Below are positions 1 through 9,448 of a DNA stretch of 52,313 nucleotides, one piece after another. Positions within the stretch are counted from its first letter, which is position 1. Every line of letters starts with the position of its first letter. The notes beneath the pieces are model-generated. The model was not told where the DNA came from. It was given only the letters and a program-made list of their open reading frames with translations, and did not search any database. The stretch lies in IMG/VR virus record IMGVR_UViG_3300037090_000125, positions 1 through 52,313 of that record, one strand, 5' to 3'. The DNA is from a virus. Its lineage: Duplodnaviria > Caudoviricetes. A program made the translations under genes and the position numbers.

Positions 1-127
1 TGGAGTGCAGATATAGAAATAGAAATCCTTCATACTGCCGTCTCCAGTGCACTTTGCCGGTCGTATTCGACGATGAGCCTATCGCAAAGATCGACCGATG
101 TATTGCAGGCCATGTATTCGGACAGCT
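1..127. repeat. Terminal overlap copy 1 (assembly circularity)
   Basis: Identical to 52187-52313. Confidence 0.98.
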
Positions 128-227
128 TCTCGCCCGCCAGCTTTTTGAAATCAGAGTATTCCTTAAACTTCCTCATCTTGATTTGCAGAAGCGCCTCTCG
201 TTTGTTCTCAAGGTCTTGGCGCGTCAT
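30..227 (-). CDS. Small coiled-coil hypothetical protein
   Basis: Likely start MTRQDLENK at 227 (ATGA overlap with the upstream stop); its stop overlaps the ATG of the 52219 gene across the circular join. Confidence 0.7.
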   Translation of the reverse strand: MTRQDLENKREALLQIKMRKFKEYSDFKKLAGEKLSEYMACNTSVDLCDRLIVEYDRQSALETAV

Positions 228-817
228 ATTTGTACCCCAGTGAAAGAAGGGTCGTCTAAATGCTTCCCGATCCTGGATGCTATCCACTGCATAATCACTG
301 GCTCGGACGGGTCTCGGGTTATTCCATCCTCGACGCAATAACTGATCGGCAAGTGCGTTACCGTAATCTTTCCGTCGGATTCCCAAGACCGGGCAAGAAC
401 TCCGAAGTTTTCCTGATCGGCCGCACAGTTATCCGGGAACTCTTCGTTTAGCCTTCGCCATTCAGCGATAAAAAGGCGTGATGCCTCGTTGTTTTTGAAG
501 TAGACCATCGAGGCTATGCCGTAGCCGTTCTCGTTTTCAACGAAGGCAAGATCGGTTGTGATGTTGTCCAGGAGTTCCGGGTACTGTTCGATCTCCCCGT
601 CCGCGTCGATCCAACAAATGTTTCTGTCGGGAAACCTGCCGAGCATTCCGAGAATGAAATACGCTTTGCGGAAACAGCAATCATTCCAGGTGCCGGGCCT
701 TTCGTGAGTTTGGACGCATCTATCGAGCGCAAAGTATTCCAGACTCTTTACGAGTCTATCCGACTGCCATGAGTAGAACTCGTCGGGCGTGTGCCAGGAC
801 ACAAAGAGGGGCATCAT
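224..817 (-). CDS. GT-A fold glycosyltransferase-like protein
   Basis: DxD motif (WIDADG), KAYFIL and later DQE motif typical of nucleotide-diphospho-sugar transferases. Confidence 0.75.
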   Translation of the reverse strand: MMPLFVSWHTPDEFYSWQSDRLVKSLEYFALDRCVQTHERPGTWNDCCFRKAYFILGMLGRFPDRNICWIDADGEIEQYPELLDNITTDLAFVENENGYGIASMVYFKNNEASRLFIAEWRRLNEEFPDNCAADQENFGVLARSWESDGKITVTHLPISYCVEDGITRDPSEPVIMQWIASRIGKHLDDPSFTGVQI

Positions 818-1215
818 GCGATCTCCATTTGGGGTTTGCCGAAAACCTCATCATAGGTTTTTGCAACCCGTCCCTCGTGGTCTACCCATGCCACCCCTGC
901 GACGGCACACATCATCCGCTCCACGGCTATCGCAACACCATGTTGATGCTTGTACGGCGAATCGACCATATCCCCCGGTTGACCAGGGTCGTCCTCGTGG
1001 GCCTTGTCGTAGGCGTCTATCTCATCAATAGAGATTCCAGCCATTTCGAGAAGCGTTTCTTCGACAAGTTCATGAATCAAAACCAACCGATTGGTGAACT
1101 CGTTGCCAGTGTCCAAGATTTCAAACCGAAGTGTTCCGTTGGGTTTAATGAAATAATCGCCGACCGTGGCATACCGCATCTTGGCGGGGTAGGATATTTC
1201 AATTAGTCTCGGCAT
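814..1215 (-). CDS. Hypothetical protein with HExxE putative metal-binding motif
   Basis: VLIHELVE plus downstream His residues; start at MPRLIEI inferred; coupled to neighbours. Confidence 0.6.
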   Translation of the reverse strand: MPRLIEISYPAKMRYATVGDYFIKPNGTLRFEILDTGNEFTNRLVLIHELVEETLLEMAGISIDEIDAYDKAHEDDPGQPGDMVDSPYKHQHGVAIAVERMMCAVAGVAWVDHEGRVAKTYDEVFGKPQMEIA

Positions 1216-1763
1216 ATTGGCGCTCCCCACATATCTTCCGTCCATCCGCTCAAGGATTTCACTTTCCCCCCAAAGAACCGGCTAAACCTCATCCATTCCT
1301 CTTGCATTGTTTCCGCTGTGATTTGCCCGACCGCGCCGGTTATTTTCGGATCGTTCGATACCGGAATCCCGGCCAGCACGATTGAGTCAAAGCCCATGAG
1401 AAGGGAAATGATGACTGCGGATAGTCCGCTCGTGCCGCCGTCTGCGTGCAAGGGCCAAATTACTTCCGGCCACCCGCCTGCCCGGTGTGTGCTCATCGGT
1501 ATCGGGTTATCCTTCCTCGCCTTGCACCAAAACCAAAGTTTGGGGGGGTGAAGCGAGGCGGCATAGTCGAGCTTGCCCTTGTACGCCGGGATAGCGTCGT
1601 TTACCGCCATGCGCTCCCCGTTGTGTTTCTTGTCGTACCGTTTCAGGTCATCGGGCAGGCACTTAGCACTGCCCATAATGAGAAGTGCCTTACCGGCCCC
1701 CGACCCGATCAAATCGGGCAGGGGACCAGTAGGAGCGCAGTATCGGATTAAGTCCTCCATCAT
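1203..1763 (-). CDS. Maf/MptE-like (sialyltransferase-like fold) putative glycosyltransferase
   Basis: LIMGSAKCL, AVND and GTSGLSAVIISLLMGFDSIVLAGI pattern recognised by eye. Confidence 0.6.
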   Translation of the reverse strand: MMEDLIRYCAPTGPLPDLIGSGAGKALLIMGSAKCLPDDLKRYDKKHNGERMAVNDAIPAYKGKLDYAASLHPPKLWFWCKARKDNPIPMSTHRAGGWPEVIWPLHADGGTSGLSAVIISLLMGFDSIVLAGIPVSNDPKITGAVGQITAETMQEEWMRFSRFFGGKVKSLSGWTEDMWGAPICRD

Positions 1764-1765
1764 GT

Positions 1766-1867
1766 TTGCAATCCCATGTTGTCTGTGCTATAAAAGAACG
1801 AGCCACAGGACGTTAGCGGCGTCTCTGCGGCTCTAATCCAATCATTTGCTAACAAGGAGCAAACTTC
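1766..1867 (+). promoter_or_regulatory. Sigma70 promoter plus two-hairpin leader of HNH cassette 1
   Basis: TTGCAA(1766)-17bp-TATAAA(1789) with extended TG; GAGCC..GGCTC stem 1800-1833; RBS hairpin TTTGCT/AGCAAA 1845-1863. Confidence 0.75.
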
Positions 1868-2398
1868 ATGGACTTTCCCAAAGATACCACGAACGTCGAG
1901 ATTCCTAAAGGCCTTTGTCAATGTGGGTGTGGAGAGAAAACCACAGTAGTTTGCGGCGTCCCCCGAAAGTTCATCCATAACCATCATTGTTTTGGAGAAA
2001 ACAACTCGTCCTGGAATAACGGGCGGACCGTCAGCAATGGTTATGTCCTCATCAAACAACCAGATCACCCCAAGGCCAATATCAACGGTTTTGTGCATGA
2101 GCACATCATTATGGCTGAAAAAGCCTTGGGCAAACCACTTCCACCAAAAGCGCAAGTACATCATCACGGTCCGAAGGCGAACCAATGCTTGGTGATATGC
2201 CAGGACACCGCCTACCACCAATTGATTGAGAAGCGCACTCGCGCCTACAACGCCTGCGGAAATGCTAACTGGCTGAAGTGTGTCCATTGCAAAAAATATG
2301 ATGAACCTCATAAGCTGGTTGTCCATGGCCGCCATATTGCCCACGCTGAATGTGACAGAAATTATGGCCGAGCTTTTCGAGAAAAATCAAAAGCCTAG
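1868..2398 (+). CDS. HNH homing endonuclease with N-terminal CxCGC zinc motif (antisense to structural operon)
   Basis: GLCQCGCG; VHEHIIMAEKALG..VHH..NQCLVIC....H; paralog of 3645-4235. Confidence 0.85.
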   Translation: MDFPKDTTNVEIPKGLCQCGCGEKTTVVCGVPRKFIHNHHCFGENNSSWNNGRTVSNGYVLIKQPDHPKANINGFVHEHIIMAEKALGKPLPPKAQVHHHGPKANQCLVICQDTAYHQLIEKRTRAYNACGNANWLKCVHCKKYDEPHKLVVHGRHIAHAECDRNYGRAFREKSKA

Positions 2399-2661
2399 TC
2401 TATGCCTACGACCACAAGCGTGTGCAACAAGTTGCTGGTTGGGGCGGCCCCATAAGTAAGAACGGCACCCGACCATGAAAGCTGGGGGTTGTATCCCGCC
2501 GTTTCTGTCTGGTTACCGACGAAGGCGCCTTCAATCTTGCCGAGCCGCGCCTGGAGGGTTGTCCCGCTACCGTCGCCCTTGACGGTCATTATTTCCGCCC
2601 TCTTGTTCCCCCAGGTGGTGAAGCTCCGGTTGGTTATGTTTGCCGCTGGAATTGCAGCCAT
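2395..2661 (-). CDS. Small virion protein, probable head decoration (paralog B)
   Basis: Downstream of the capsid gene; shares WGNKR, LGKIE, GNQTE and QLSWSG with 2679-2942. Confidence 0.6.
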   Translation of the reverse strand: MAAIPAANITNRSFTTWGNKRAEIMTVKGDGSGTTLQARLGKIEGAFVGNQTETAGYNPQLSWSGAVLTYGAAPTSNLLHTLVVVGID

Positions 2662-2678
2662 TTTACATCACCTTCCTT

Positions 2679-2942
2679 TCAGTCAGATCCGACTGCAAAG
2701 ATTGTATGTTTCTTTGTTGAAGCGGGCGCCACAGCGTAGGTCAGCGTATTGCCGCTCCAACTAAGCTGAGCGTTCCATCCTGCATTTTCCGTCTGATTTC
2801 CGGCCCAAGCCGCCTCTATCTTGCCGAGGGGAAAGGCGAGGGTCGCCGTGCCAGCCAGGTCGCCCGTGATCGTGGCAAAGCAAACCCTCTTATTGCCCCA
2901 TGAACAGAAGTGAAAGTGGGTCGGAGATATTGTAAGAGCCAT
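2679..2942 (-). CDS. Small virion protein, probable head decoration (paralog A)
   Basis: Tandem paralog of 2395-2661; GAGG RBS. Confidence 0.6.
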   Translation of the reverse strand: MALTISPTHFHFCSWGNKRVCFATITGDLAGTATLAFPLGKIEAAWAGNQTENAGWNAQLSWSGNTLTYAVAPASTKKHTIFAVGSD

Positions 2943-2957
2943 ACCTCACCGCCCTTT

Positions 2958-3506
2958 CTACTTCAGGAAGGTTGTCAGGTCGGGAAGACGCCTGGTCCTG
3001 AACCAGAAGAAACCCACAAAAGACGCGCTGGTTGTGGCGCAAGTATAGGTCATGGTCTTGTACGTTCCGTCCCCGATGAAGTTCTGAAAGACAGGGATCG
3101 CATTGTGCTCTGCGGTATTCGCGCCGTCCTGACCCTTTTTGAACGCATACCCGAGGGTATTCGCGGACAGATACGCGGCGTTGGTTCCCTGTGAGACTGT
3201 GAACGCAGGCCGTACCCATCCGGCCGTTGCGATGGAAGCCCCGTAGACGAAACAATACGGTCCGTAAGTGGCATACTCGGACGAGAGGATACCGATGTTA
3301 ATGGTTTTCGCCCCGGTTCCCTCAACGGTCTGAACGAAGACGTAGCAGGACTGCCAATCAATTTCCTGGTACTTCTCGATCACGTACCCCTTGCCGGCGA
3401 CTGCGGCGTTCCCATCGAAGGTGGTCTCAACATTGCTGTTGAAACTCATCGGCAGGCATTCATATTGCCATTCGGCGGCCATGTTTGTTGCAAGTCCAAT
3501 AGTCAT
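2958..3506 (-). CDS. Putative capsid cement/decoration protein
   Basis: First same-strand gene after the major capsid gene; beta-rich composition; AGGAAGGA RBS. Confidence 0.5.
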   Translation of the reverse strand: MTIGLATNMAAEWQYECLPMSFNSNVETTFDGNAAVAGKGYVIEKYQEIDWQSCYVFVQTVEGTGAKTINIGILSSEYATYGPYCFVYGASIATAGWVRPAFTVSQGTNAAYLSANTLGYAFKKGQDGANTAEHNAIPVFQNFIGDGTYKTMTYTCATTSASFVGFFWFRTRRLPDLTTFLK

Positions 3507-3542
3507 TTTTTATATTCCTTCCTTTCTAAGTACTTGTTTGTT

Positions 3543-3644
3543 TTGCATTACAGGGAGGTTTGTGGTATAAAAGAACGAGCCGGAAAGATGCGCTAACATC
3601 AAACCGGCTCTAACCAATTTATCTACTGAAAAGGAGTAGACAGC
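3543..3644 (+). promoter_or_regulatory. Sigma70 promoter plus two-hairpin leader of HNH cassette 2
   Basis: TTGCAT(3543)-17bp-TATAAA(3566) with extended TG; GAGCCGG..CCGGCTC stem 3577-3610; RBS hairpin TCTACT/AGTAGA 3622-3640. Confidence 0.75.
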
Positions 3645-4235
3645 ATGGCTGAGCCCAAAGATACCACGAACATTCCTGAGATTCCATACGGTTTTTGTCA
3701 TTGTGGATGCGGGCAGAAAGCGCCACTCGCGCCGATTACGAACAATGGCGGACGGCACAGCCAAACAAAGGGCGACCCCTTGCGGTTCTGCTCCGGCCAT
3801 CAGGCTAGAGGGAAGTGCAACTCGTCCTACAATGGCGGCAAAAGCGTCGTCAGGGGTTATACTGTAACCATGCGCCCCGGTACTCATGCCGGGTACGATT
3901 ACGAACATCGGCTTATTGCCGAAAAAGCACTTGGCCGCCCACTGAAGCCGCCGGAAGAGGTTCATCACCATGGCCCTAAGAAAGACCAGTGTTTGGTAAT
4001 TTGCCAGGATCATGCGTACCACATGCTTCTCCACCAAAGACAACGCGCCCTTGAAGCGTGCGGTAATGCCGACTACCGCAAATGCTGGATATGCAAAACG
4101 TGGCATGACTCCGCCGACATGGAACGCATTGGAGACGGATATCAACATGTAGAATGCCGCATTACTCGGTACCATCGATTACATCCTAATAGCGCCTATC
4201 GATCTAGGCGTAAGCATCAGGAAAGACTTGAATAA
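3645..4235 (+). CDS. HNH homing endonuclease with CxCGC motif (antisense, overlaps capsid gene 3' end)
   Basis: GFCHCGCG; YEHRLIAEKALGRPL..EEVHH..DQCLVICQDHAYH. Confidence 0.85.
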   Translation: MAEPKDTTNIPEIPYGFCHCGCGQKAPLAPITNNGGRHSQTKGDPLRFCSGHQARGKCNSSYNGGKSVVRGYTVTMRPGTHAGYDYEHRLIAEKALGRPLKPPEEVHHHGPKKDQCLVICQDHAYHMLLHQRQRALEACGNADYRKCWICKTWHDSADMERIGDGYQHVECRITRYHRLHPNSAYRSRRKHQERLE

Positions 4236-5152
4236 AAGCCATGTGCATTTCTGCGCTTACACAAAAGTTGCCCTACCCAGATGAGCTGTGTCGTGTAGAC
4301 GTACTGATCCACCGGGCGCATCCACGGTTCTCTTACGAAAAAGAAGTCCTTGTGCGACTTCATATCGAGCAGGTTTTCGTTGAGGAAATACAGGTACCCC
4401 GATGGGCAGAGGTAATCGGATACGAGCGGGATGCCGTTGATGACGAGGTTTTGGAAACCTACTTCGGCAAGCTCGGCCTCTTCGTATCTCTGGTTGACCT
4501 GGGTTTGTCCTTCGACAACATCGAAAAGGGTCCGCGTGGTGATCATGATGGTCGGTTTGTCTTCGATGCCGTCGCCCACCTGGCAGGAAGTTCTACCCGC
4601 ACGCATGATCGCATAGGACAAAGCGTAGCCGGTCGTGTTGGCAACGCCGGTCGTCCATTCGGCGATATCGGAGGATGATATCTGACCGTATGAGGTTGTC
4701 GACGAACTCATCATGGCCGGAAGTCCGAGCATCCCGCGCCCGGTCGGTTGCTGGGTAGAGTTGTTGTAAAAATCGACCGCAATGCTCTGACGAATCTTTT
4801 TCTGTGCGTTTGTGAGTTTTGCCGCAACAATATCGACCTGAGCGGCGCTTCCTGCGTTTCGGACCTTATCGTCGATATCGAAGGTAACGGGTTCGTAGTA
4901 GTAGGCAGGTGCAAAGCGAGCGGCGTTCAGTTCCTCACGCTTCGAGGTATCGAACTTGCTTTGCGCGTTGAACGATCCGCCTACAGGTTGGCCGTACTGA
5001 ATCACCACGCGGAGGTAGTCGCCGCCGCTCCACTTGCGCCCTTTTTTTAGCAGCCGGTACATAAGGGCGTTGCCCTTAAAGTACTGATCGTGCGCACCGG
5101 GCTCCCAATAATCCTGGGTGAGAGCATTGATTTCATTGAGATTCAAACTCAT
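4217..5152 (-). CDS. Major capsid protein
   Basis: 311 aa directly after scaffold and portal; GFQNLVINGIPLVSD..CPSGYLYFLN and terminal RRNAHG resemble podophage HK97-fold capsids. Confidence 0.85.
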   Translation of the reverse strand: MSLNLNEINALTQDYWEPGAHDQYFKGNALMYRLLKKGRKWSGGDYLRVVIQYGQPVGGSFNAQSKFDTSKREELNAARFAPAYYYEPVTFDIDDKVRNAGSAAQVDIVAAKLTNAQKKIRQSIAVDFYNNSTQQPTGRGMLGLPAMMSSSTTSYGQISSSDIAEWTTGVANTTGYALSYAIMRAGRTSCQVGDGIEDKPTIMITTRTLFDVVEGQTQVNQRYEEAELAEVGFQNLVINGIPLVSDYLCPSGYLYFLNENLLDMKSHKDFFFVREPWMRPVDQYVYTTQLIWVGQLLCKRRNAHGFYSSLS

Positions 5153-5188
5153 TTCTTTGTCCTTTCAGTGACTTAGGTTAGTTCTGCT

Positions 5189-5208
5189 CGGTCTCTAAAA
5201 GGACTCTG
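5189..5208 (-). promoter_or_regulatory. Repeated leader motif CAGAGTCC-N2/3-TAGAGACCG (copy upstream of capsid gene)
   Basis: Second copy at 6145-6163. Confidence 0.55.
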
Positions 5209-5227
5209 AAATGTTGCCGTTTTGGTG

Positions 5228-6082
5228 TTAGTCGAGACTTCCACCTCTCATCGCTTTAAGTGCGGCCTTCATTGCTTCCGCCGCGTCTTCGCTGTTACTG
5301 AAATTCTGCACCTTGCCGCTTCCGCCGCCAGTGGAGGCCCTTGCCGTTCCGCCGCCCTGAAGCAGTCGAATCCCGCCCCGAGCCTTCATGGTCTGGAGCG
5401 TTTCCTTTTCGCCGGCCTGCTTGCCCTTCGCGCCAGCCGTGGCGATCTGGGCCTTGAGGTCTGCAATTTCCTTCTGGTGCGTTACCGTTGCCCGATCCGC
5501 CTTGAAGGCGAGATATGCCTGTACGCCGTCAGCATAAAAGGGGTTGCGAGCCCTGAAAGTGGCGAACTCACCCGCCAGTGCTCCGTTAATTGCTTCGGGC
5601 GCGTCCGGGTGTGCGGCGAGAAACTGTGAATCCCGCTGCTGTTCGCTCAATGTGGTTGACGTGGCTGATTGTGCCCGGATTTCGGCAAACTGTCCTATTG
5701 CATCGAGCAGGGTCGGGATTGCGTCCATGTCCCCGTTTGCAAACCTGGTAAGAGCGTCTTGCGCCTGGTCCCTGATGCCGGTTATCGGGTCTTGCTGAGC
5801 CTGAACCGGAGCGGGAGCGGGCTGGTACACAGGTTGCGGCGCCGGCTGATTCGCCTTTGCGCTCAGTTCGGCAATCTGTTTTTGAAGGTCCAGATTCTCG
5901 CTGATCCGGTCCATGACCTCTTGACCGGTGAGCGTAACTTCGTTTCCATCGTCGCCCGTTATGGCCATGTAGGGTTGCGATAAGTCAAGTTCGGTCTCTT
6001 GCGGCTGACTTTCGGACTCATCGTTTAGGGTGCCGTCGTCGTTCTGTTCAAAATCGTCCTGGGTGCCGTTATCAAGTTCCAT
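5228..6082 (-). CDS. Capsid scaffolding protein
   Basis: Acidic N-terminus, helical Ala/Gln-rich body, Gly-rich linker, immediately upstream of the capsid gene. Confidence 0.75.
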   Translation of the reverse strand: MELDNGTQDDFEQNDDGTLNDESESQPQETELDLSQPYMAITGDDGNEVTLTGQEVMDRISENLDLQKQIAELSAKANQPAPQPVYQPAPAPVQAQQDPITGIRDQAQDALTRFANGDMDAIPTLLDAIGQFAEIRAQSATSTTLSEQQRDSQFLAAHPDAPEAINGALAGEFATFRARNPFYADGVQAYLAFKADRATVTHQKEIADLKAQIATAGAKGKQAGEKETLQTMKARGGIRLLQGGGTARASTGGGSGKVQNFSNSEDAAEAMKAALKAMRGGSLD

Positions 6083-6113
6083 TGCCTAAGTTCCTTTCCG
6101 GTGTTTGAGAAGT

Positions 6114-6147
6114 AAAAAACCGGCTCAGATTTTCTGTGTCTGGCCGG
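6114..6147 (-). terminator. Putative intrinsic terminator/attenuator upstream of scaffold gene
   Basis: Minus strand CCGGCCAGA-loop-TCTGAGCCGG followed by TTTTTT. Confidence 0.6.
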
Positions 6148-6163
6148 TCTCTAGTGGACTCTG
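6145..6163 (-). promoter_or_regulatory. Repeated leader motif (copy upstream of scaffold, overlapping the terminator stem)
   Basis: CAGAGTCCACTAGAGACCG; matches 5189-5208. Confidence 0.55.
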
Positions 6164-6188
6164 CTGATTGTCTAACTATTGAATGCCG

Positions 6189-6398
6189 TCACTCCATCAC
6201 GAAATAATTGTCCGTCTTGCATCGGGGACACCTGACCTTCTGTGGTCCCGTCGGATCTCCCTCAAAAAAGAGTTTCCCGCACCGTGGATTAAGACATCGG
6301 CATTCGATCTGCGGGACTTCCGATGAACATTCGGGAAGCCCGTATCTCACTTTGGGGAGATTTAGCCGGTGCAACGTGGCGTGCGGGTGAGTTCCCAT
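6189..6398 (-). CDS. Mu Com-like zinc-ribbon regulator
   Basis: ECRCLNPRCGKLFF..KVRCPRCKTDN pattern. Confidence 0.7.
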   Translation of the reverse strand: MGTHPHATLHRLNLPKVRYGLPECSSEVPQIECRCLNPRCGKLFFEGDPTGPQKVRCPRCKTDNYFVME

Positions 6399-6745
6399 TA
6401 CACTTCGGTCCTATTGTATTGTCCCGGTTTCTCTCTAATGCCCTTGGTGGCAAGGTAGTCGTTAAACTCCTTGCGGGTCTTCATGACGTTGCCCTGGTAT
6501 AACCCGTTGCCCTTTGTGCCCTCGTAGTGCTCCTGTGATACCGTTTTTGCGTGTTCGTCGAGCCACGAGCAATCTTCGAGCAGCCCGCGTATCGGGTGAT
6601 TGTCGAACTTGCCCGAAACAATGATGTATTTGGCCTTCCCGCCGCACTTTTCGCAGGGAAGCGTATCGGGGCGGGACCGCCAGGAGGTGAAAACGGTTTC
6701 CTCGTGGGCGCCGCATGTGTCGCATTGGAAAACGAAGATGCCCAT
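6398..6745 (-). CDS. FmdB-like zinc-ribbon protein
   Basis: MGIFVFQCDTCG..E....PCEKCGG. Confidence 0.7.
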   Translation of the reverse strand: MGIFVFQCDTCGAHEETVFTSWRSRPDTLPCEKCGGKAKYIIVSGKFDNHPIRGLLEDCSWLDEHAKTVSQEHYEGTKGNGLYQGNVMKTRKEFNDYLATKGIREKPGQYNRTEV

Positions 6746-7008: not shown

Positions 7009-7244
7009 CTAGCCCTCCCGTCGTTCATGACATCCATTGCCGCTGCGCCAAGGCCTACTGGTTCGATTAGGGGTTTGTCTTTTTTCTTCCGTGCCTGATG
7101 GAGGTTGTTCATGGCCGCAAGAAGCATATCCATAGCCAAGTCGAGGTTATCCGGAATGCCGATTTGAAGCGTGCGGTTAGAAAGTGCGTGAATCACTACT
7201 TCGGCTTCGATTGTCGGTGCTGGGATTTTGGGTTGATTGCTCAC
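7005..7244 (-). CDS. Hypothetical protein
   Basis: Coupled to the portal stop. Confidence 0.6.
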   Translation of the reverse strand: MSNQPKIPAPTIEAEVVIHALSNRTLQIGIPDNLDLAMDMLLAAMNNLHQARKKKDKPLIEPVGLGAAAMDVMNDGRAR

Positions 7245-9448
7245 TGTTGTGCTCCTTGTGGCATCGCTTGAGGTTGTCCTTGTGGCTGCCCCTGCCCGCC
7301 GCCTGCGAGCATCATCGGGCCTCCCTGTTTAAAGATTTTATCTGCGCTTGCACTTACTTCTTCGGGTATCCCCGCCTTCATCATGGCCGCTAAGGTCTGG
7401 TTCGCCGGTTTTACCTGTGGGAATAGCCGCTCAAATTCTTTTTCCGGCATGGCGATTATCTTTATCAAAGCGTCCAACAACTCCGGCTTGAGCTCCACTT
7501 GCATACCGGAGTTAAACATCCCGGTTTTCTGTAGCCTTTGAGCCGCCTGCATGAGAGGACCGCGTGCCTTCCTTGCAAGTATCTGGTCGCGGTTCGGCAC
7601 GTTGAAAATGTCAAGGATCGCTTCAGCATCGAGGAATCCGCCAGAGGCGAGCTTTAGCCACATTTCGCGCTTAGCCGATTTGCTTTGCGGTAATGTACTG
7701 CCGGCCTCAACGTTGAACGCGTATTGACCCTGGAACTGTTCGGCCACACCACGGAAGGCTATCGCCTCTTCGCCCTGACCGCCGGATAGTTTGATTTTCT
7801 TTTCAAACGAATACCAGTTCTGGCCGAGGCTTATATACATACGCCCTTGCTCTTCAAGGGACGTATCGAGGTTTCTGATCTTCTCGCGGAGAACAGATTG
7901 AGCTTTCTCCTGCAGGGCGGCAATGGCCGCAAATGCGGTTATCCCTTGTGCTCCCCGGCCTTCGGTTACATCGGTCAGGCCCGTAATGATATCTATGAAC
8001 TTCATGAGAAGCTCGATATACGCCCCGTAGTCGGTTGGGAGGTTCGGGACTTCCAGATACCGGATGAGAGCGGCCGCCGTCATTGTGGGCTCCCACACGC
8101 GCTCGGGCAGGTTGTTTATCTGCCTTTTCTCGAGTCCGGAGCCTTTCGGGTTGATAATCGGGGGCAGGCAGGCTGCATCCAAGTGAGAGCCGACTTTTGT
8201 AATCTTTTTGGCTATCTCGATTACAAGCGGTTCGATTTGCTCAATGATCGACAATCCGTATTCGGATAGACCGTCCGAGTAGCTGAGGCGCTTGAAAAAG
8301 GGAAACTTATCCCAAAGGTAACAGTCGGCGGCCTTCTCGAGCGGGAGTTGCGGGTTTATGCTTGGATTCGGCAGATCGTCTAAAACCAGATCGCCCTTGT
8401 TCGTAACGCGAATCCGGCGGAGAAATCCGGGGTATTTTGATTCCTGGTGAGGCTCGGCCTGCTTGATCGCCAACTGCATGGCCGGTTGTCCCGTCATGGG
8501 ATCAATCGCCGGTTGACCGCTCATTGGATCGATTACGGGTTGGGGTTCGAGATAAAGTAAATCGTTCGGGTTCGGCTTCCCGCTCGACCTTTTGCCCGTT
8601 ACCGGGTTCACCCACACGAAGGTGTAGTCTTTTACCCAGCAGGTAACGACGAGGGCCTTCTGAATACCGTAATTTTCTGTCTCGCTGGTGTGCTTATCAA
8701 CGGGCTTAAAGCTGTCGCCACCCACGCCTTGCGGGTATCCCGATTGCAGGTAGGGCCGGATGGTTTTCTGACTGACGTTGCCCCGCGTCTCGCGCCGATC
8801 TTCGCCGAGATTATTCGAAAACTGGGTATCGGATTTGACTTTTCCCTCGACGCCGGGGATTTGCCGATAGATCGTGTCTAACTCTATGGCCTCCATCTTA
8901 AAAAGCATGGGGGCCTTTTGGATGTCGATGTATCCCGGCCAGAGCACCGTTCCAAAGTTATCACCCAGAACTGTTTCTATTTCCCCCATGCCCCCGGCAA
9001 GCTCAGGATCGAACCTCATTTCGTCGGTCTGACAGCCGTAAAGCTCTGAGAGTCCCACCGATTCCTGAAGTGTGTTTTGCTGCCGGGTTGCGTCCCACCA
9101 TTCCTCGTAAGCCGCCTGCCAAGCGTTCGCCGCCTGGTCGCCAGCTTCGCCTCGGGGTTCGATGGATGCCTGCGGTTCGTTGTCGGTAAGTTCGGCCTTG
9201 AGCTTGTTCACCGTCTTGAAGAACAGATTGACGGGCACCTGTGTGATTTTGGGCTTGGGGTTTTTGAAGAACCGATTGCGGTACAGCTCGTGGTTGTGGC
9301 GCCATACGTCCGTTATGCCCAAGGTCTCGCGGTACTTCAGGGCAAACTTGAGCTTGCCCCACACCCACGCCCCCACGTTTTCAGAACCTTCCGGGGGCGG
9401 GGCAAGACGCCATGATTCCCAATCGGCGGATTTGGACGTTGCAGGCAT
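7241..9448 (-). CDS. Portal protein (P22-like)
   Basis: 735 aa between terminase and scaffold; YGLSIIE, ITGLTDVTEG and VEAGSTLP segments; Gln/Pro-rich tail. Confidence 0.88.
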   Translation of the reverse strand: MPATSKSADWESWRLAPPPEGSENVGAWVWGKLKFALKYRETLGITDVWRHNHELYRNRFFKNPKPKITQVPVNLFFKTVNKLKAELTDNEPQASIEPRGEAGDQAANAWQAAYEEWWDATRQQNTLQESVGLSELYGCQTDEMRFDPELAGGMGEIETVLGDNFGTVLWPGYIDIQKAPMLFKMEAIELDTIYRQIPGVEGKVKSDTQFSNNLGEDRRETRGNVSQKTIRPYLQSGYPQGVGGDSFKPVDKHTSETENYGIQKALVVTCWVKDYTFVWVNPVTGKRSSGKPNPNDLLYLEPQPVIDPMSGQPAIDPMTGQPAMQLAIKQAEPHQESKYPGFLRRIRVTNKGDLVLDDLPNPSINPQLPLEKAADCYLWDKFPFFKRLSYSDGLSEYGLSIIEQIEPLVIEIAKKITKVGSHLDAACLPPIINPKGSGLEKRQINNLPERVWEPTMTAAALIRYLEVPNLPTDYGAYIELLMKFIDIITGLTDVTEGRGAQGITAFAAIAALQEKAQSVLREKIRNLDTSLEEQGRMYISLGQNWYSFEKKIKLSGGQGEEAIAFRGVAEQFQGQYAFNVEAGSTLPQSKSAKREMWLKLASGGFLDAEAILDIFNVPNRDQILARKARGPLMQAAQRLQKTGMFNSGMQVELKPELLDALIKIIAMPEKEFERLFPQVKPANQTLAAMMKAGIPEEVSASADKIFKQGGPMMLAGGGQGQPQGQPQAMPQGAQQ

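What the first reader, a model, noticed from the sequence alone, without database searches (positions are those of the whole stretch)
1766..4235. Two paralogous antisense HNH cassettes, each with a conserved promoter and two-hairpin RNA leader
Seen: both HNH genes lie opposite to the head operon behind TTGCAW-17-TATAAA. Both continue AGAACGAGCC..GGCTCTAA(T)CCAAT, then a second hairpin, then a shared PKDTTN protein start. The outer stem is conserved while its interior differs. Inference: a self-contained mobile unit (promoter, structured RNA, HNH) that has inserted twice. The leader could be a cis-regulator or an RNA partner of the nuclease.
Basis: partly seen in the sequence, partly recalled or inferred. 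Interest (0 to 1): 0.7.

Follow-up and report, generated by a model that had tools for sequence, protein, structure and literature searches.

The report
Antisense-controlled, mirror-readable HNH nuclease cassettes
Two selfish nuclease genes sit backwards inside a phage's head-gene operon, each carrying a portable control region that probably makes a small antisense RNA, and each kept free of stop codons on its reverse strand so that the operon can apparently be read straight through it.

Summary
Both HNH genes (1868-2398, 3645-4235, + strand) lie antiparallel in the head operon, behind TTGCAW-17-TATAAA, a long hairpin with a conserved base, and a second hairpin holding the Shine-Dalgarno sequence. 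A related phage (major capsid protein 85% identical) lacks both cassettes.

The same module precedes 19 nuclease genes of at least four N-terminal types, plus one integrase gene: 20 distinct versions. No Rfam family reaches its threshold.

Three results change the reading.
- The structure covaries (20 of 26 pairs) and is selected on the minus strand. G.U pairs valid only there number 69, against 14 valid only on the plus strand.
- A sigma-70-like promoter sits on the minus strand inside codons 4-14, 9-10 nt from the anti-start codon. It scores 8 or more in 18 of 20 versions, against 3.2% of control ORFs.
- Every module-bearing HNH gene keeps its codon-aligned antisense frame open: 1 TTA/CTA/TCA in 2,708 codons, against 1.6 per 100 in module-less homologs.

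Best reading: a face-to-face promoter pair gives an HNH mRNA and a ~75-80 nt countertranscript covering its ribosome site (IS10 or SymR-like logic). A stop-free mirror frame lets operon ribosomes cross the cassette. No RNA has been observed.

The parts
1766..1794 (+). Sense promoter of cassette 1: TTGCAA, 17 nt, TATAAA
   Evidence: Read. It matches 9 of 12 consensus positions. The same geometry is found in 20 of 20 versions, and 16 of 20 match 9 of 12 or better.
1800..1833 (-). Hairpin 1 of cassette 1. On the minus strand it is followed by GUUCUUUUAUA (1799-1789), making it the predicted terminator of the countertranscript. On the plus strand it is the 5'-terminal hairpin of the HNH mRNA.
   Evidence: Folds (-20.9 kcal/mol on minus, -19.4 on plus). 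Covariation.
1845..1863 (-). Hairpin 2 of cassette 1. Its loop carries the Shine-Dalgarno sequence on the plus strand and the anti-Shine-Dalgarno sequence on the minus strand.
   Evidence: Helix 3 is paired in 99% of cells, and all 5 of its pairs show double changes.
1788..1873 (-). Predicted countertranscript 1 (about 80 nt)
   Evidence: Covariance model R1 scores 56.6 bits. This copy was in the training set. z-score -5.19 on the minus strand against -3.76 on the plus strand.
1881..1889 (-). Antisense promoter 1: extended -10 element TGG-TATCTT inside codons 5-8 (KDTT), 10 nt before the anti-start codon
   Evidence: score 8, which 3.2% of 505 control ORFs reach.
1868..2398 (+). HNH-1 gene, 176 aa
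   Evidence: phrog_20891, E 1.1e-12.
1760..2344 (-). Mirror ORF 1 (194 aa), the codon-aligned antisense frame of HNH-1. It runs through both hairpins and ends in an ATGA overlap with the next head-operon gene (1203-1763).
   Evidence: (the only TTA/CTA/TCA codon is number 173 of 176).
3543..3571 (+). Sense promoter of cassette 2: TTGCAT, 17 nt, TATAAA
3577..3610 (-). Hairpin 1 of cassette 2, followed on the minus strand by GUUCUUUUAUA
   Evidence: -18.7 kcal/mol on minus, -16.2 on plus.
3622..3640 (-). Hairpin 2 of cassette 2 (Shine-Dalgarno / anti-Shine-Dalgarno loop)
3565..3649 (-). Predicted countertranscript 2 (about 80 nt)
   Evidence: R1 scores 73.2 bits (training member). Rfam symR scores 37.2 bits on 3574-3650 of the minus strand, below its gathering score of 61.
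3658..3666 (-). Antisense promoter 2: TGG-TATCTT inside codons 5-8
   Evidence: score 8.
3645..4235 (+). HNH-2 gene, 196 aa. Its last 19 nt overlap the 3' end of the capsid gene.
   Evidence: phrog_25114, E 6.3e-17; phrog_20891, E 1e-9. Model.
3510..4175 (-). Mirror ORF 2 (221 aa). It starts 42 nt after the capsid gene's stop codon, runs through both hairpins, and stops at TAA 3 nt before the ATG of the next head gene (2958-3506).
   Evidence: (the only TTA/CTA/TCA codon is number 178 of 196). Public pipelines call it as a gene on 26 contigs.

Best explanation
Each cassette is a free-standing HNH homing-endonuclease-type gene inserted backwards into a late structural operon. It carries a portable sense/antisense control module.

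Proposed mechanism:
1. A sigma-70-type promoter starts the HNH mRNA at the foot of hairpin 1.
2. A second promoter on the other strand, inside codons 4-14 of the HNH gene, starts a ~75-80 nt RNA about 2-3 nt before the anti-start codon.
3. That RNA folds into hairpin 2, whose loop is the anti-Shine-Dalgarno sequence.
4. It ends at hairpin 1 plus a U-rich tail.
5. It is fully complementary to the mRNA's 5' UTR, ribosome site and start codon. It should therefore hold HNH translation low, by the same logic as IS10 RNA-OUT/RNA-IN, R1162-type countertranscripts or symE/SymR.

Separately, the codon-aligned antisense frame of the whole HNH gene is kept free of stops and runs on through both hairpins to the start of the next operon gene. 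I infer that ribosomes on the operon mRNA translate this meaningless 'mirror ORF'. That would keep transcription and translation coupled, so avoiding polarity, and would melt hairpin 1 so that it stops only the short untranslated RNA.

Shown by computation:
- The conserved module and its covariation.
- The minus-strand bias of the structure.
- Both promoters.
- The stop-free frame.
- Absence of the cassettes from a related phage.

Inferred only:
- That the small RNA exists.
- That it represses HNH translation.
- That the mirror frame is translated, and why.
For: Recurrence:
- There are 20 distinct versions. Twelve came from DNA patterns.
- Retrieval by protein alone gave 8 loci, and 8 of 8 carry the module; 6 were new.
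- Two hits were not in the model's training set: L095 (60 bits) and a second copy in L120 (62 bits).
- The downstream genes are the window's CxCGCG type, phrog_2340 'endonuclease' (13 versions), NUMOD4+HNH_3 (Pfam E 2e-12 and 2e-6), another cysteine-rich HNH type (L119), and one Phage_integrase (E 5e-35).

Structure:
- 87.6% of cells are paired, against 68.5% in shuffles and about 40% with partners slid.
- 20 of 26 pairs show changes on both sides.
- Covariation score is 0.578 against 0.21, reached by 0 of 500 shuffles.

Strand:
- G.U pairs (minus strand only) number 69 against 14 A.C (plus strand only). In hairpin 2 the counts are 33 against 1. G.U exceeds A.C in 20 of 20 sequences.
- Free folding of each strand gives hairpin 2 a summed energy of -151 kcal/mol on minus against -86 on plus.
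- Mean z-score is -5.5 on minus against -4.0 on plus, and minus is lower in 18 of 20.

Antisense promoter:
- TAnnnT lies 9-10 nt before CAT in 17 of 20 versions.
- The -35/-10 score is 8 or more in 18 of 20 and 9 or more in 15 of 20. Of 505 control ORFs, 3.2% and 0.8% reach these scores.
- There is compensation between elements. L016 and L112 have a perfect TTGACA-17 and no TG extension. The window copies have the TG extension and a weak -35.

Sense promoter: 9 of 12 or better in 16 of 20.

Mirror frame:
- In-phase TTA/CTA/TCA occur once in 2,708 codons, against 120 and 185 in the two other phases.
- 30 module-less homologs have 94 in 5,788 codons. The window's own genes have 2.3 per 100.
- The frame stays open through hairpin 1 in 16 of 20 versions, against 0 of 20 and 10 of 20 for the other two frames.
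- Codon changes silent only for HNH number 246 and 2,130; those silent only for the mirror frame number 47 and 514.

Insertion: a related phage has capsid gene, 67 nt, then the next head gene, with no cassette.
Against: - No RNA of either strand has been observed. The only RNA-library data are short unstranded contigs that miss the modules.
- Three versions (L110, L113, L123) have TTTAAT, lacking the critical A at -11.
- The window's sense -10 element, TATAAA, lacks the conserved final T.
- Part of the antisense promoter in the phrog_2340 type coincides with conserved protein motifs (CxxCK gives TTGCA). Protein constraint therefore contributes there.
- The positions scored were chosen after looking at the sequences.
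- Alignment A7 was fitted to a minus-strand model, which favours that strand. Searches do not share this bias, but they show no strand difference for window copy 2 (-4.72 against -4.91).
- The invariance of AGAACGAGCC and GGCTCTAA in 12 versions was imposed by the search patterns.
- The U-rich tail of hairpin 1 is also simply the complement of the sense -10 region. The simple terminator scan did not list hairpin 1, because its loop rule is 3-8 nt.
- Only about a third of mirror ORFs have a Shine-Dalgarno-like motif before their first start codon.
- Four versions (L109, L119, L121, L095) have a stop before the end of hairpin 1.
- The closest module-less homolog, L013, also has no TTA/CTA/TCA codon.
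Confidence: 0.55

Rival explanations
1. This is a plain mRNA leader. Hairpin 1 is a 5'-terminal stabiliser of the HNH mRNA. Hairpin 2 tunes or sequesters the ribosome site, as in T-even homing-endonuclease genes. No discrete antisense RNA is made.
For: - The sense promoter is strong in 16 of 20 versions.
- Both hairpins also fold on the plus strand, with a mean z-score of -4.0.
- In several versions the start codon pairs within an extended plus-strand hairpin 2.
- RBS-sequestering hairpins are the documented control of I-TevI, I-TevII, I-TevIII, segB and mobE (PMC2988022, passages read).
Against: - 69 G.U pairs would be A.C mismatches on the mRNA strand, against 14 the other way. In hairpin 2 the counts are 33 against 1.
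- Hairpin 2 is 11 bp on the minus strand but 5-8 bp on the plus strand in most versions.
- A promoter-like element sits on the minus strand at a fixed distance in unrelated N-terminal coding sequences. A leader-only model does not explain this.
Confidence: 0.2
2. Hairpin 1 with its U-rich tail is only a transcription terminator or attenuator acting on operon or spurious minus-strand transcripts that cross the cassette. The minus-strand structure serves that role, and the apparent antisense promoter is a by-product of coding constraints.
For: - The hairpin is long and GC-rich, with a U-rich tail on the minus strand only.
- The cassettes sit directly after highly expressed genes: capsid protein in the window and L126, tail protein in L096 and L121.
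- Three versions lack a proper -10 element.
Against: - It does not explain the strong minus-strand covariation of hairpin 2, which is no terminator (helices 1-3).
- It does not explain why the mirror frame is kept open through hairpin 1 in 16 of 20 versions.
- The related phage without cassettes has no such hairpin after its capsid gene.
- In L120 two cassettes stand in tandem, each with its own module.
Confidence: 0.12
3. The mirror ORF encodes a functional protein, making this a true antiparallel overlapping gene. The module is its C-terminal coding region.
For: - The frame is open in 17 of 18 HNH genes.
- Its junctions with the neighbouring genes look like operon junctions.
- Gene callers annotate it.
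Against: - The two mirror proteins are 32% identical, against 45% for the HNH proteins.
- Codon changes are silent for HNH four to five times as often as for the mirror frame.
- None of 6 mirror proteins has a PHROG family.
- The reading frame across the conserved module blocks differs between versions (read).
- Hairpin lengths vary by non-multiples of three.
Confidence: 0.05

Closest known systems
IS10/Tn10 RNA-IN / RNA-OUT (recalled knowledge; no call tested it beyond the Rfam scan)
   Same: - A selfish DNA enzyme gene whose 5' end is overlapped by a short, stable, hairpin-forming antisense RNA.
- That RNA is made from an outward-facing promoter just inside the coding region.
- The promoters are face to face and pairing covers the ribosome site.
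   Different: - The enzyme here is an HNH nuclease (or, once, an integrase) in phage operons, not a transposase.
- The overlap is the whole ~65-70 nt 5' UTR and contains two hairpins.
- No Rfam hit to RNA-OUT appeared.
- A stop-free mirror frame is not a feature I know of for IS10.
SymR antitoxin RNA of symE/symR, Rfam RF01809
   Same: - A ~77 nt cis-antisense RNA starting a few nt behind the start codon of a nuclease-like toxin gene.
- It has two hairpins, the second being a terminator.
- Window copy 2 matches the model end to end on the minus strand.
   Different: - The score is 37.2 bits against a gathering score of 61. Copy 1 gives no hit at E <= 10.
- The target is an HNH protein, not SymE.
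- This is a resemblance of architecture, not membership.
R1162/RSF1010-type plasmid countertranscript, Rfam RF00043
   Same: The layout is the same: hairpin, then CUAACCA, then a hairpin holding the Shine-Dalgarno sequence, then AUG. Shown in the alignment.
   Different: - The score is 20.5 bits against a gathering score of 55 (E 2 to 6.6).
- The context is plasmid replication control.
Regulation of T-even free-standing and intron-encoded homing endonuclease genes (I-TevI, segB, mobE)
   Same: - Own promoters.
- An RNA hairpin at the ribosome site.
- A need to fit into the host phage's transcription programme (PMC2988022, passages read).
   Different: - Those genes are mostly co-oriented and are controlled by the choice of transcript and by autorepression.
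- The passages read describe no dedicated antisense RNA, no module shared across nuclease families and no open mirror frame.
- T4 segD is noted there as antisense-oriented with presumably very low expression.

Membership tests
HNH (beta-beta-alpha-metal) endonuclease | Significant match to curated HNH profiles | tested here: met
   PHROG families annotated as HNH endonuclease: phrog_20891 at E 1.1e-12 (HNH-1) and 1e-9 (HNH-2), plus phrog_10730 and phrog_15471. Pfam gave no family at E <= 0.01.
HNH (beta-beta-alpha-metal) endonuclease | Catalytic His ... Asn ... His motif | tested here: inconclusive
   H107/H108 and H126 are invariant or nearly so in 20 homologs. The family consensus reads HHxNGxKxDNxxxNL. 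Both window proteins read HHHGPK(K/A)(D/N)QCL, with a shorter loop and no clear central Asn (read).
HNH (beta-beta-alpha-metal) endonuclease | Beta-beta-alpha-metal fold | tested here: inconclusive
   The model has pLDDT 84. Foldseek against the PDB gave no match at E <= 0.001. VIA-align gave only weak rows over residues 67-139: 8w1p_G (Z 3.2, rmsd 3.0, 57 aligned), 9liq_A IscB (Z 2.8), and 1u3e_M I-HmuI (Z 2.5, rmsd 3.3, 60 aligned).
Free-standing homing endonuclease gene | Nuclease gene in an intergenic site next to a conserved gene, absent from the same site in a related genome | tested here: met
   L118 (capsid protein 85% identical) has capsid gene, 67 nt, then the homolog of 2958-3506. 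It has no HNH and no module.
Free-standing homing endonuclease gene | Cleaves the cassette-less allele and spreads by repair | not testable with these tools
   This needs a cleavage assay or a co-infection cross.
SymR, Rfam RF01809 | Score at or above the family's gathering threshold (61 bits) | tested here: not met
   37.2 bits for copy 2. No hit for copy 1 at E <= 10.
R1162-like antisense RNA, Rfam RF00043 | Score at or above the gathering threshold (55 bits) | tested here: not met
   20.5 bits.
Cis-encoded antisense RNA (countertranscript) control | Promoter on the opposite strand within the target's 5' region | tested here: met
   The score at a fixed position is 8 or more in 18 of 20 versions, against 3.2% of 505 control ORFs. 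This is sequence evidence only.
Cis-encoded antisense RNA (countertranscript) control | Structured RNA with a recognition loop and an intrinsic terminator on that strand | tested here: met
   Covariation, minus-strand G.U bias and folds. The tail after hairpin 1 is U-rich (GUUCUUUUAUA and variants). The simple terminator scan did not list it, because its loop limit is 8 nt.
Cis-encoded antisense RNA (countertranscript) control | The RNA is made and lowers target expression | not testable with these tools
   The RNA-library contigs are unstranded and do not cover the modules.

The most novel reading that the evidence does not exclude
This would be a portable 'stealth kit' for selfish DNA enzymes that insert backwards into essential phage operons. 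It has three parts:
- A face-to-face promoter pair that yields the enzyme's mRNA and a repressing countertranscript.
- A terminator that stops only the untranslated small RNA.
- A stop-free mirror reading frame, maintained by selection but meaningless as protein. It lets the operon's ribosomes ride through the cassette and over the terminator, so the insertion causes no polarity.

The kit has been exchanged among at least four unrelated nuclease families and a recombinase.
Probability: 0.35. Interest if true: 0.85.

Novelty: new variant of a known kind. Interest (0 to 1): 0.78.

Why it matters
- It would show how a selfish nuclease gene can sit antiparallel inside an essential late operon at little cost. 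That question is raised, but left open, in the T4 literature I read.
- Selection for 'translatability without meaning' on the reverse strand would be a new kind of constraint on coding sequence.
- It gives a directly testable case of ribosome-dependent terminator override.
- The module is an undescribed conserved RNA element. No Rfam family reaches its threshold, and four literature searches found no description.
- There is a practical consequence. Gene callers often annotate the mirror ORF and miss the nuclease: 26 contigs against 1 for cassette 2.

Tried and rejected
- Pfam on the two HNH proteins and eight neighbours: no family at E <= 0.01.
- The simple promoter and terminator scan lists neither the module's promoters nor hairpin 1, and its totals do not exceed shuffles.
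- Of 79 loci holding relatives of the window's HNH type, I inspected the upstream regions of 48, those with longer matches. Two of the 48 had no start codon. Only the six copies of one element carried the leader.
- Model R1 found nothing in L013-L090 except L084 at 16.5 bits, E 0.46.
- Of the 10 loci holding the exact 16-mer, 4 were chance matches.
- Of the 22 loci matching the two-block pattern, most lacked any further likeness. L104 (37.9 bits), L093 (33.9) and L097 (25.9) remain doubtful and were left out of all counts.
- A single-protein search for relatives of the L096 nuclease found only itself.
- The MAFFT alignment of the plus strand misaligned hairpin 2, so RNAalifold saw only the 6-bp base of hairpin 1. 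I therefore used a covariance-model alignment.
- RNA libraries: three peat metatranscriptome runs hold short contigs identical to scattered parts of 1-6500. They give no strand or end information and do not cover the modules.
- PDB by sequence gave one irrelevant hit at E 0.4. The fold searches were inconclusive.
- The tree of the HNH type was unresolved.
- The mirror protein has no relatives by word search other than itself.
- Considered and dropped without a formal test, by reading only: a LexA box, a boxA/nut-like antiterminator, and a tRNA-like fragment as explanations of the conserved GAGCC/GGCUCUAA blocks.
Full report
WHAT IS THERE

The window is a whole 52,313-base virus record with direct terminal repeats. 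Its head genes run on the minus strand:
- portal, 7241-9448;
- a 284-aa ORF, 5228-6082;
- major capsid protein, 4217-5152 (phrog_9953, E 1.2e-36);
- then 2958-3506, 2679-2942, 2395-2661 and 1203-1763.

Two plus-strand genes interrupt them: HNH-1 (1868-2398, 176 aa) and HNH-2 (3645-4235, 196 aa). They are 45% identical. Both match PHROG families annotated as HNH endonuclease, though no Pfam family at E <= 0.01.

- TTGCAW, 17 nt, TATAAA, AGAAC;
- a 34-nt hairpin with a GAGCC/GGCTC base and a different interior;
- TAA(T)CCAAT;
- a 6-bp hairpin with the Shine-Dalgarno sequence in its loop and 3' arm;
- ATG.

The 16-mer spanning the -10 element and the hairpin base occurs exactly twice in the genome.

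THE CASSETTES ARE INSERTIONS

A phage whose capsid protein is 85% identical (L118) has this order: capsid gene, 67 nt, the homolog of 2958-3506, one copy of the small 2679/2395-type gene, then the homolog of 224-817. It has neither HNH cassette, and the covariance model finds no module there. For cassette 2 the inserted stretch is roughly 3545-4213.

The two window HNH proteins are not each other's nearest relatives. Each is closest to the module-less L013, at 53% and 49% identity. The tree is unresolved, and a single clade of module-bearers is not rejected (p-AU 0.29). 'Inserted twice' therefore stands, but as old paralogs or separate arrivals.

THE MODULE RECURS WITH DIFFERENT ENZYMES

DNA-pattern scans:
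- They found the module in another phage lineage, before an HNH 44% identical to the window's (six identical copies).
- They found it before genes of a different nuclease type in L096 and L099.
- They found it in six further metagenome contigs.
- They found it in one contig of a Chloroflexota MAG.
- Caveat: these scans required AGAACGAGCC and GGCTCTAA, so the constancy of those blocks in these 12 versions was imposed by the search.

Protein-only retrieval:
- A search for the second nuclease type gave 8 loci, and all 8 carry the module. Six were new.
- These show natural variation: AGAAC becomes AATGC, AAGC or AAAGC; GGCTC becomes GGCCC twice; TAA becomes TGA once.

Covariance-model search:
- Model R1, built on the minus strand, found two copies it was not trained on.
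- One precedes a Phage_integrase gene (L095, 60 bits; Pfam E 5e-35).
- The other is a second, tandem cassette in L120 (62 bits).
- It found nothing convincing in about 75 loci holding module-less relatives of the window's HNH type.

In all there are 20 distinct versions. The downstream genes are:
- the window's CxCGCG type (4 versions);
- phrog_2340 'endonuclease' (13 versions);
- NUMOD4+HNH_3+HTH (1);
- another cysteine-rich HNH type (1);
- an integrase (1).

Where the flanks could be named, the cassettes follow a capsid or tail-protein gene. In 16 loci the neighbouring long ORFs lie on the strand opposite to the HNH gene.

STRUCTURE AND STRAND

On the model-based alignment of the 20 versions:
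- 87.6% of cells pair, against 68.5% in shuffles and about 40% when partners are slid.
- 20 of 26 pairs show changes on both sides.
- The covariation score is 0.578 against 0.21, reached by 0 of 500 shuffles.

That alignment was fitted to the structure, which inflates these figures somewhat.

The more telling result is strand asymmetry:
- 69 cells are G.U pairs valid only on the minus strand, against 14 A.C cells that would pair only on the plus strand. In hairpin 2 the counts are 33 against 1. Every one of the 20 sequences leans the same way.
- Free folding of each strand, with no alignment involved, agrees. Hairpin 2 sums to -151 kcal/mol on the minus strand against -86 on the plus strand (18 versions).
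- Against dinucleotide shuffles the minus strand has the lower z-score in 18 of 20, with means of -5.5 and -4.0.
- For the window's own copies the difference is clear for copy 1 (-5.19 against -3.76) and absent for copy 2 (-4.72 against -4.91).

On the minus strand, hairpin 2 begins at the anti-start codon and shows the anti-Shine-Dalgarno sequence in a 6-7 nt loop. Hairpin 1 is followed by a U-rich tail.

AN ANTISENSE PROMOTER

Inside codons 4-14 of each gene, on the minus strand, a -10-like hexamer ends 9-10 nt before CAT (TAnnnT in 17 of 20).
- The window copies have an extended -10 element, TGG-TATCTT. This accounts for the 18 identical bases that encode PKDTTN.
- L016 and L112 have a perfect TTGACA-17-TATTCT without the TG extension.
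- The phrog_2340 type has TTGCAN, about 17 nt, then TGT-TATGAT.

A simple consensus score at this fixed place reaches 8 or more in 18 of 20 versions and 9 or more in 15 of 20. Of 505 control ORFs, 3.2% and 0.8% reach these scores.

Weak points:
- Three versions read TTTAAT.
- The positions were chosen after seeing the data.
- In the phrog_2340 type part of the signal coincides with conserved Cys-Lys codons.

The sense promoter matches 9 of 12 or better in 16 of 20. The picture is a face-to-face promoter pair about 75 nt apart, giving an mRNA with a 61-70 nt 5' UTR and a fully complementary ~75-80 nt RNA.

Rfam supports the analogy but not membership. SymR aligns end to end to copy 2 on the minus strand at 37.2 bits (gathering score 61). 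The R1162 countertranscript model scores 20.5 bits (gathering score 55).

THE MIRROR FRAME

A crude ORF map showed that in nearly every locus the longest ORF over the HNH gene is on the opposite strand, in the codon-aligned frame. Stops in that frame arise only from TTA, CTA or TCA codons in the HNH gene.

Codon counts:
- In 18 module-bearing HNH genes such codons occur only in the last 5-25 codons. L121 is the exception, with one at codon 3.
- Over the first 85% of these genes the count is 1 in 2,708 codons in phase, against 120 and 185 in the other two phases.
- Thirty module-less homologs have 94 in 5,788 codons. For this control I dropped the six L016-type loci, duplicates, and ORFs under 120 aa.
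- The window's own long genes have 2.3 per 100 codons.

Extent of the open frame:
- It continues through both hairpins in 16 of 20 versions, against 0 and 10 of 20 for the other two frames.
- It usually stops at or next to the start of the next operon gene.
- Mirror ORF 2 in the window (3510-4175) starts 42 nt after the capsid stop and ends at TAA 3 nt before the next ATG.
- Mirror ORF 1 in the window (1760-2344) ends in an ATGA overlap with the next gene.

The mirror products are not conserved as proteins:
- They are 32% identical, against 45% for the HNH proteins.
- None of 6 has a PHROG family.
- Codon changes silent only for HNH outnumber those silent only for the mirror frame by 246 to 47 and by 2,130 to 514.

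The frame is therefore kept open, not kept meaningful.

Points against translation:
- A Shine-Dalgarno-like motif precedes the first start codon in only about a third of mirror ORFs.
- The nearest module-less homolog, L013, also lacks these codons.

HOW IT MOST LIKELY WORKS

Shown:
- A conserved, covarying module biased to the minus strand.
- Two convergent promoters.
- An open mirror frame.
- The insertion status of the cassettes.

Inferred:
- The minus-strand promoter makes a small RNA. Its 5' hairpin loop meets the Shine-Dalgarno loop of the mRNA, and full pairing blocks translation or triggers decay. This keeps a potentially harmful nuclease low.
- During late transcription of the head operon, ribosomes translate the mirror frame. 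That would prevent an untranslated 600-700 nt gap, which would invite Rho-dependent polarity. It would also unwind hairpin 1, so that hairpin 1 terminates only the untranslated small RNA.

I put the countertranscript part at about 0.55, and the full two-part model at about 0.35.

COMPARISON AND NOVELTY

Cis-antisense control of selfish enzymes (IS10), of plasmid replication proteins (R1162) and of nuclease-like toxins (symE/SymR) is well known; I recall these from the literature. Free-standing HNH genes with their own promoters and RBS hairpins are also known (PMC2988022, passages read).

What I did not find:
- a countertranscript module shared across nuclease families in phages;
- selection for an open mirror frame.

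I looked in Rfam, in the full-text searches (listings and abstracts only), and in the passages of the T4 review.

STILL UNEXPLAINED

- Why are the 5-bp base of hairpin 1 and the flanking UUAGA so constant, even in the protein-retrieved versions?
- What is the host? One version lies in a Chloroflexota MAG contig, and the RNA runs are from peat.

Noticed in passing
window 2395-2661 and 2679-2942 (minus strand): Two adjacent small head-operon genes (88 and 87 aa) look like tandem paralogs. The related phage L118 has a single homolog (35% identical to both) at L118 6588-6884.
   Followed up: partly
window 814-1763 (minus strand): The genes 1203-1763 and 814-1245, downstream of cassette 1, have no homolog in the L118 locus. 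There the small head gene is followed directly by the homolog of 224-817. This may be a second accessory block next to the cassette.
   Followed up: no
L120 267-1865: Two HNH cassettes of the phrog_2340 type stand in tandem in the same orientation, each with its own module. A 107-aa minus-strand ORF (925-1248) lies between them.
   Followed up: partly
L095 11318-12248: The module (60 bits, not a training sequence) precedes a tyrosine recombinase gene (Pfam Phage_integrase, E 5e-35) instead of a nuclease. Here the mirror frame is not open and the upstream neighbour is co-oriented.
   Followed up: partly
L013 3992-4531: The closest module-less relative of both window HNH proteins (53% and 49% identical) is co-oriented with its upstream gene, yet it also has no TTA/CTA/TCA codon in 179 codons. 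It may be a relic of an antiparallel past, or chance.
   Followed up: no
window 3510-4175 and 3645-4235: Public gene calls favour the mirror ORF. The 221-aa mirror protein is on record from 26 contigs (NCBI, IMG, Logan, ENA), while HNH-2 is on record from 1. In L005 the counts are 14 for the mirror ORF against 6 for the HNH.
   Followed up: yes
L119 (contig of a Chloroflexota MAG), 3965-4338: This is the only hit in 185,579 species genomes. The HNH-like ORF behind the module is only 99 aa and may be truncated. It is a weak hint about the host.
   Followed up: no
window 1-6500: Three peat metatranscriptome libraries contain short contigs (151-300 nt) identical to parts of this phage, including 2030-2363 inside HNH-1 / mirror ORF 1. 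The strand is unknown, and DNA carry-over is not excluded.
   Followed up: partly
window, all versions: GAGCC...GGCUC and UUAGA: The 5-bp base of hairpin 1 and the UUAGA before it on the minus strand stay nearly invariant, even in versions retrieved by protein alone. The interior, the loops and the promoter spacers all vary. A sequence-specific binding factor is possible, but none has been identified.
   Followed up: no
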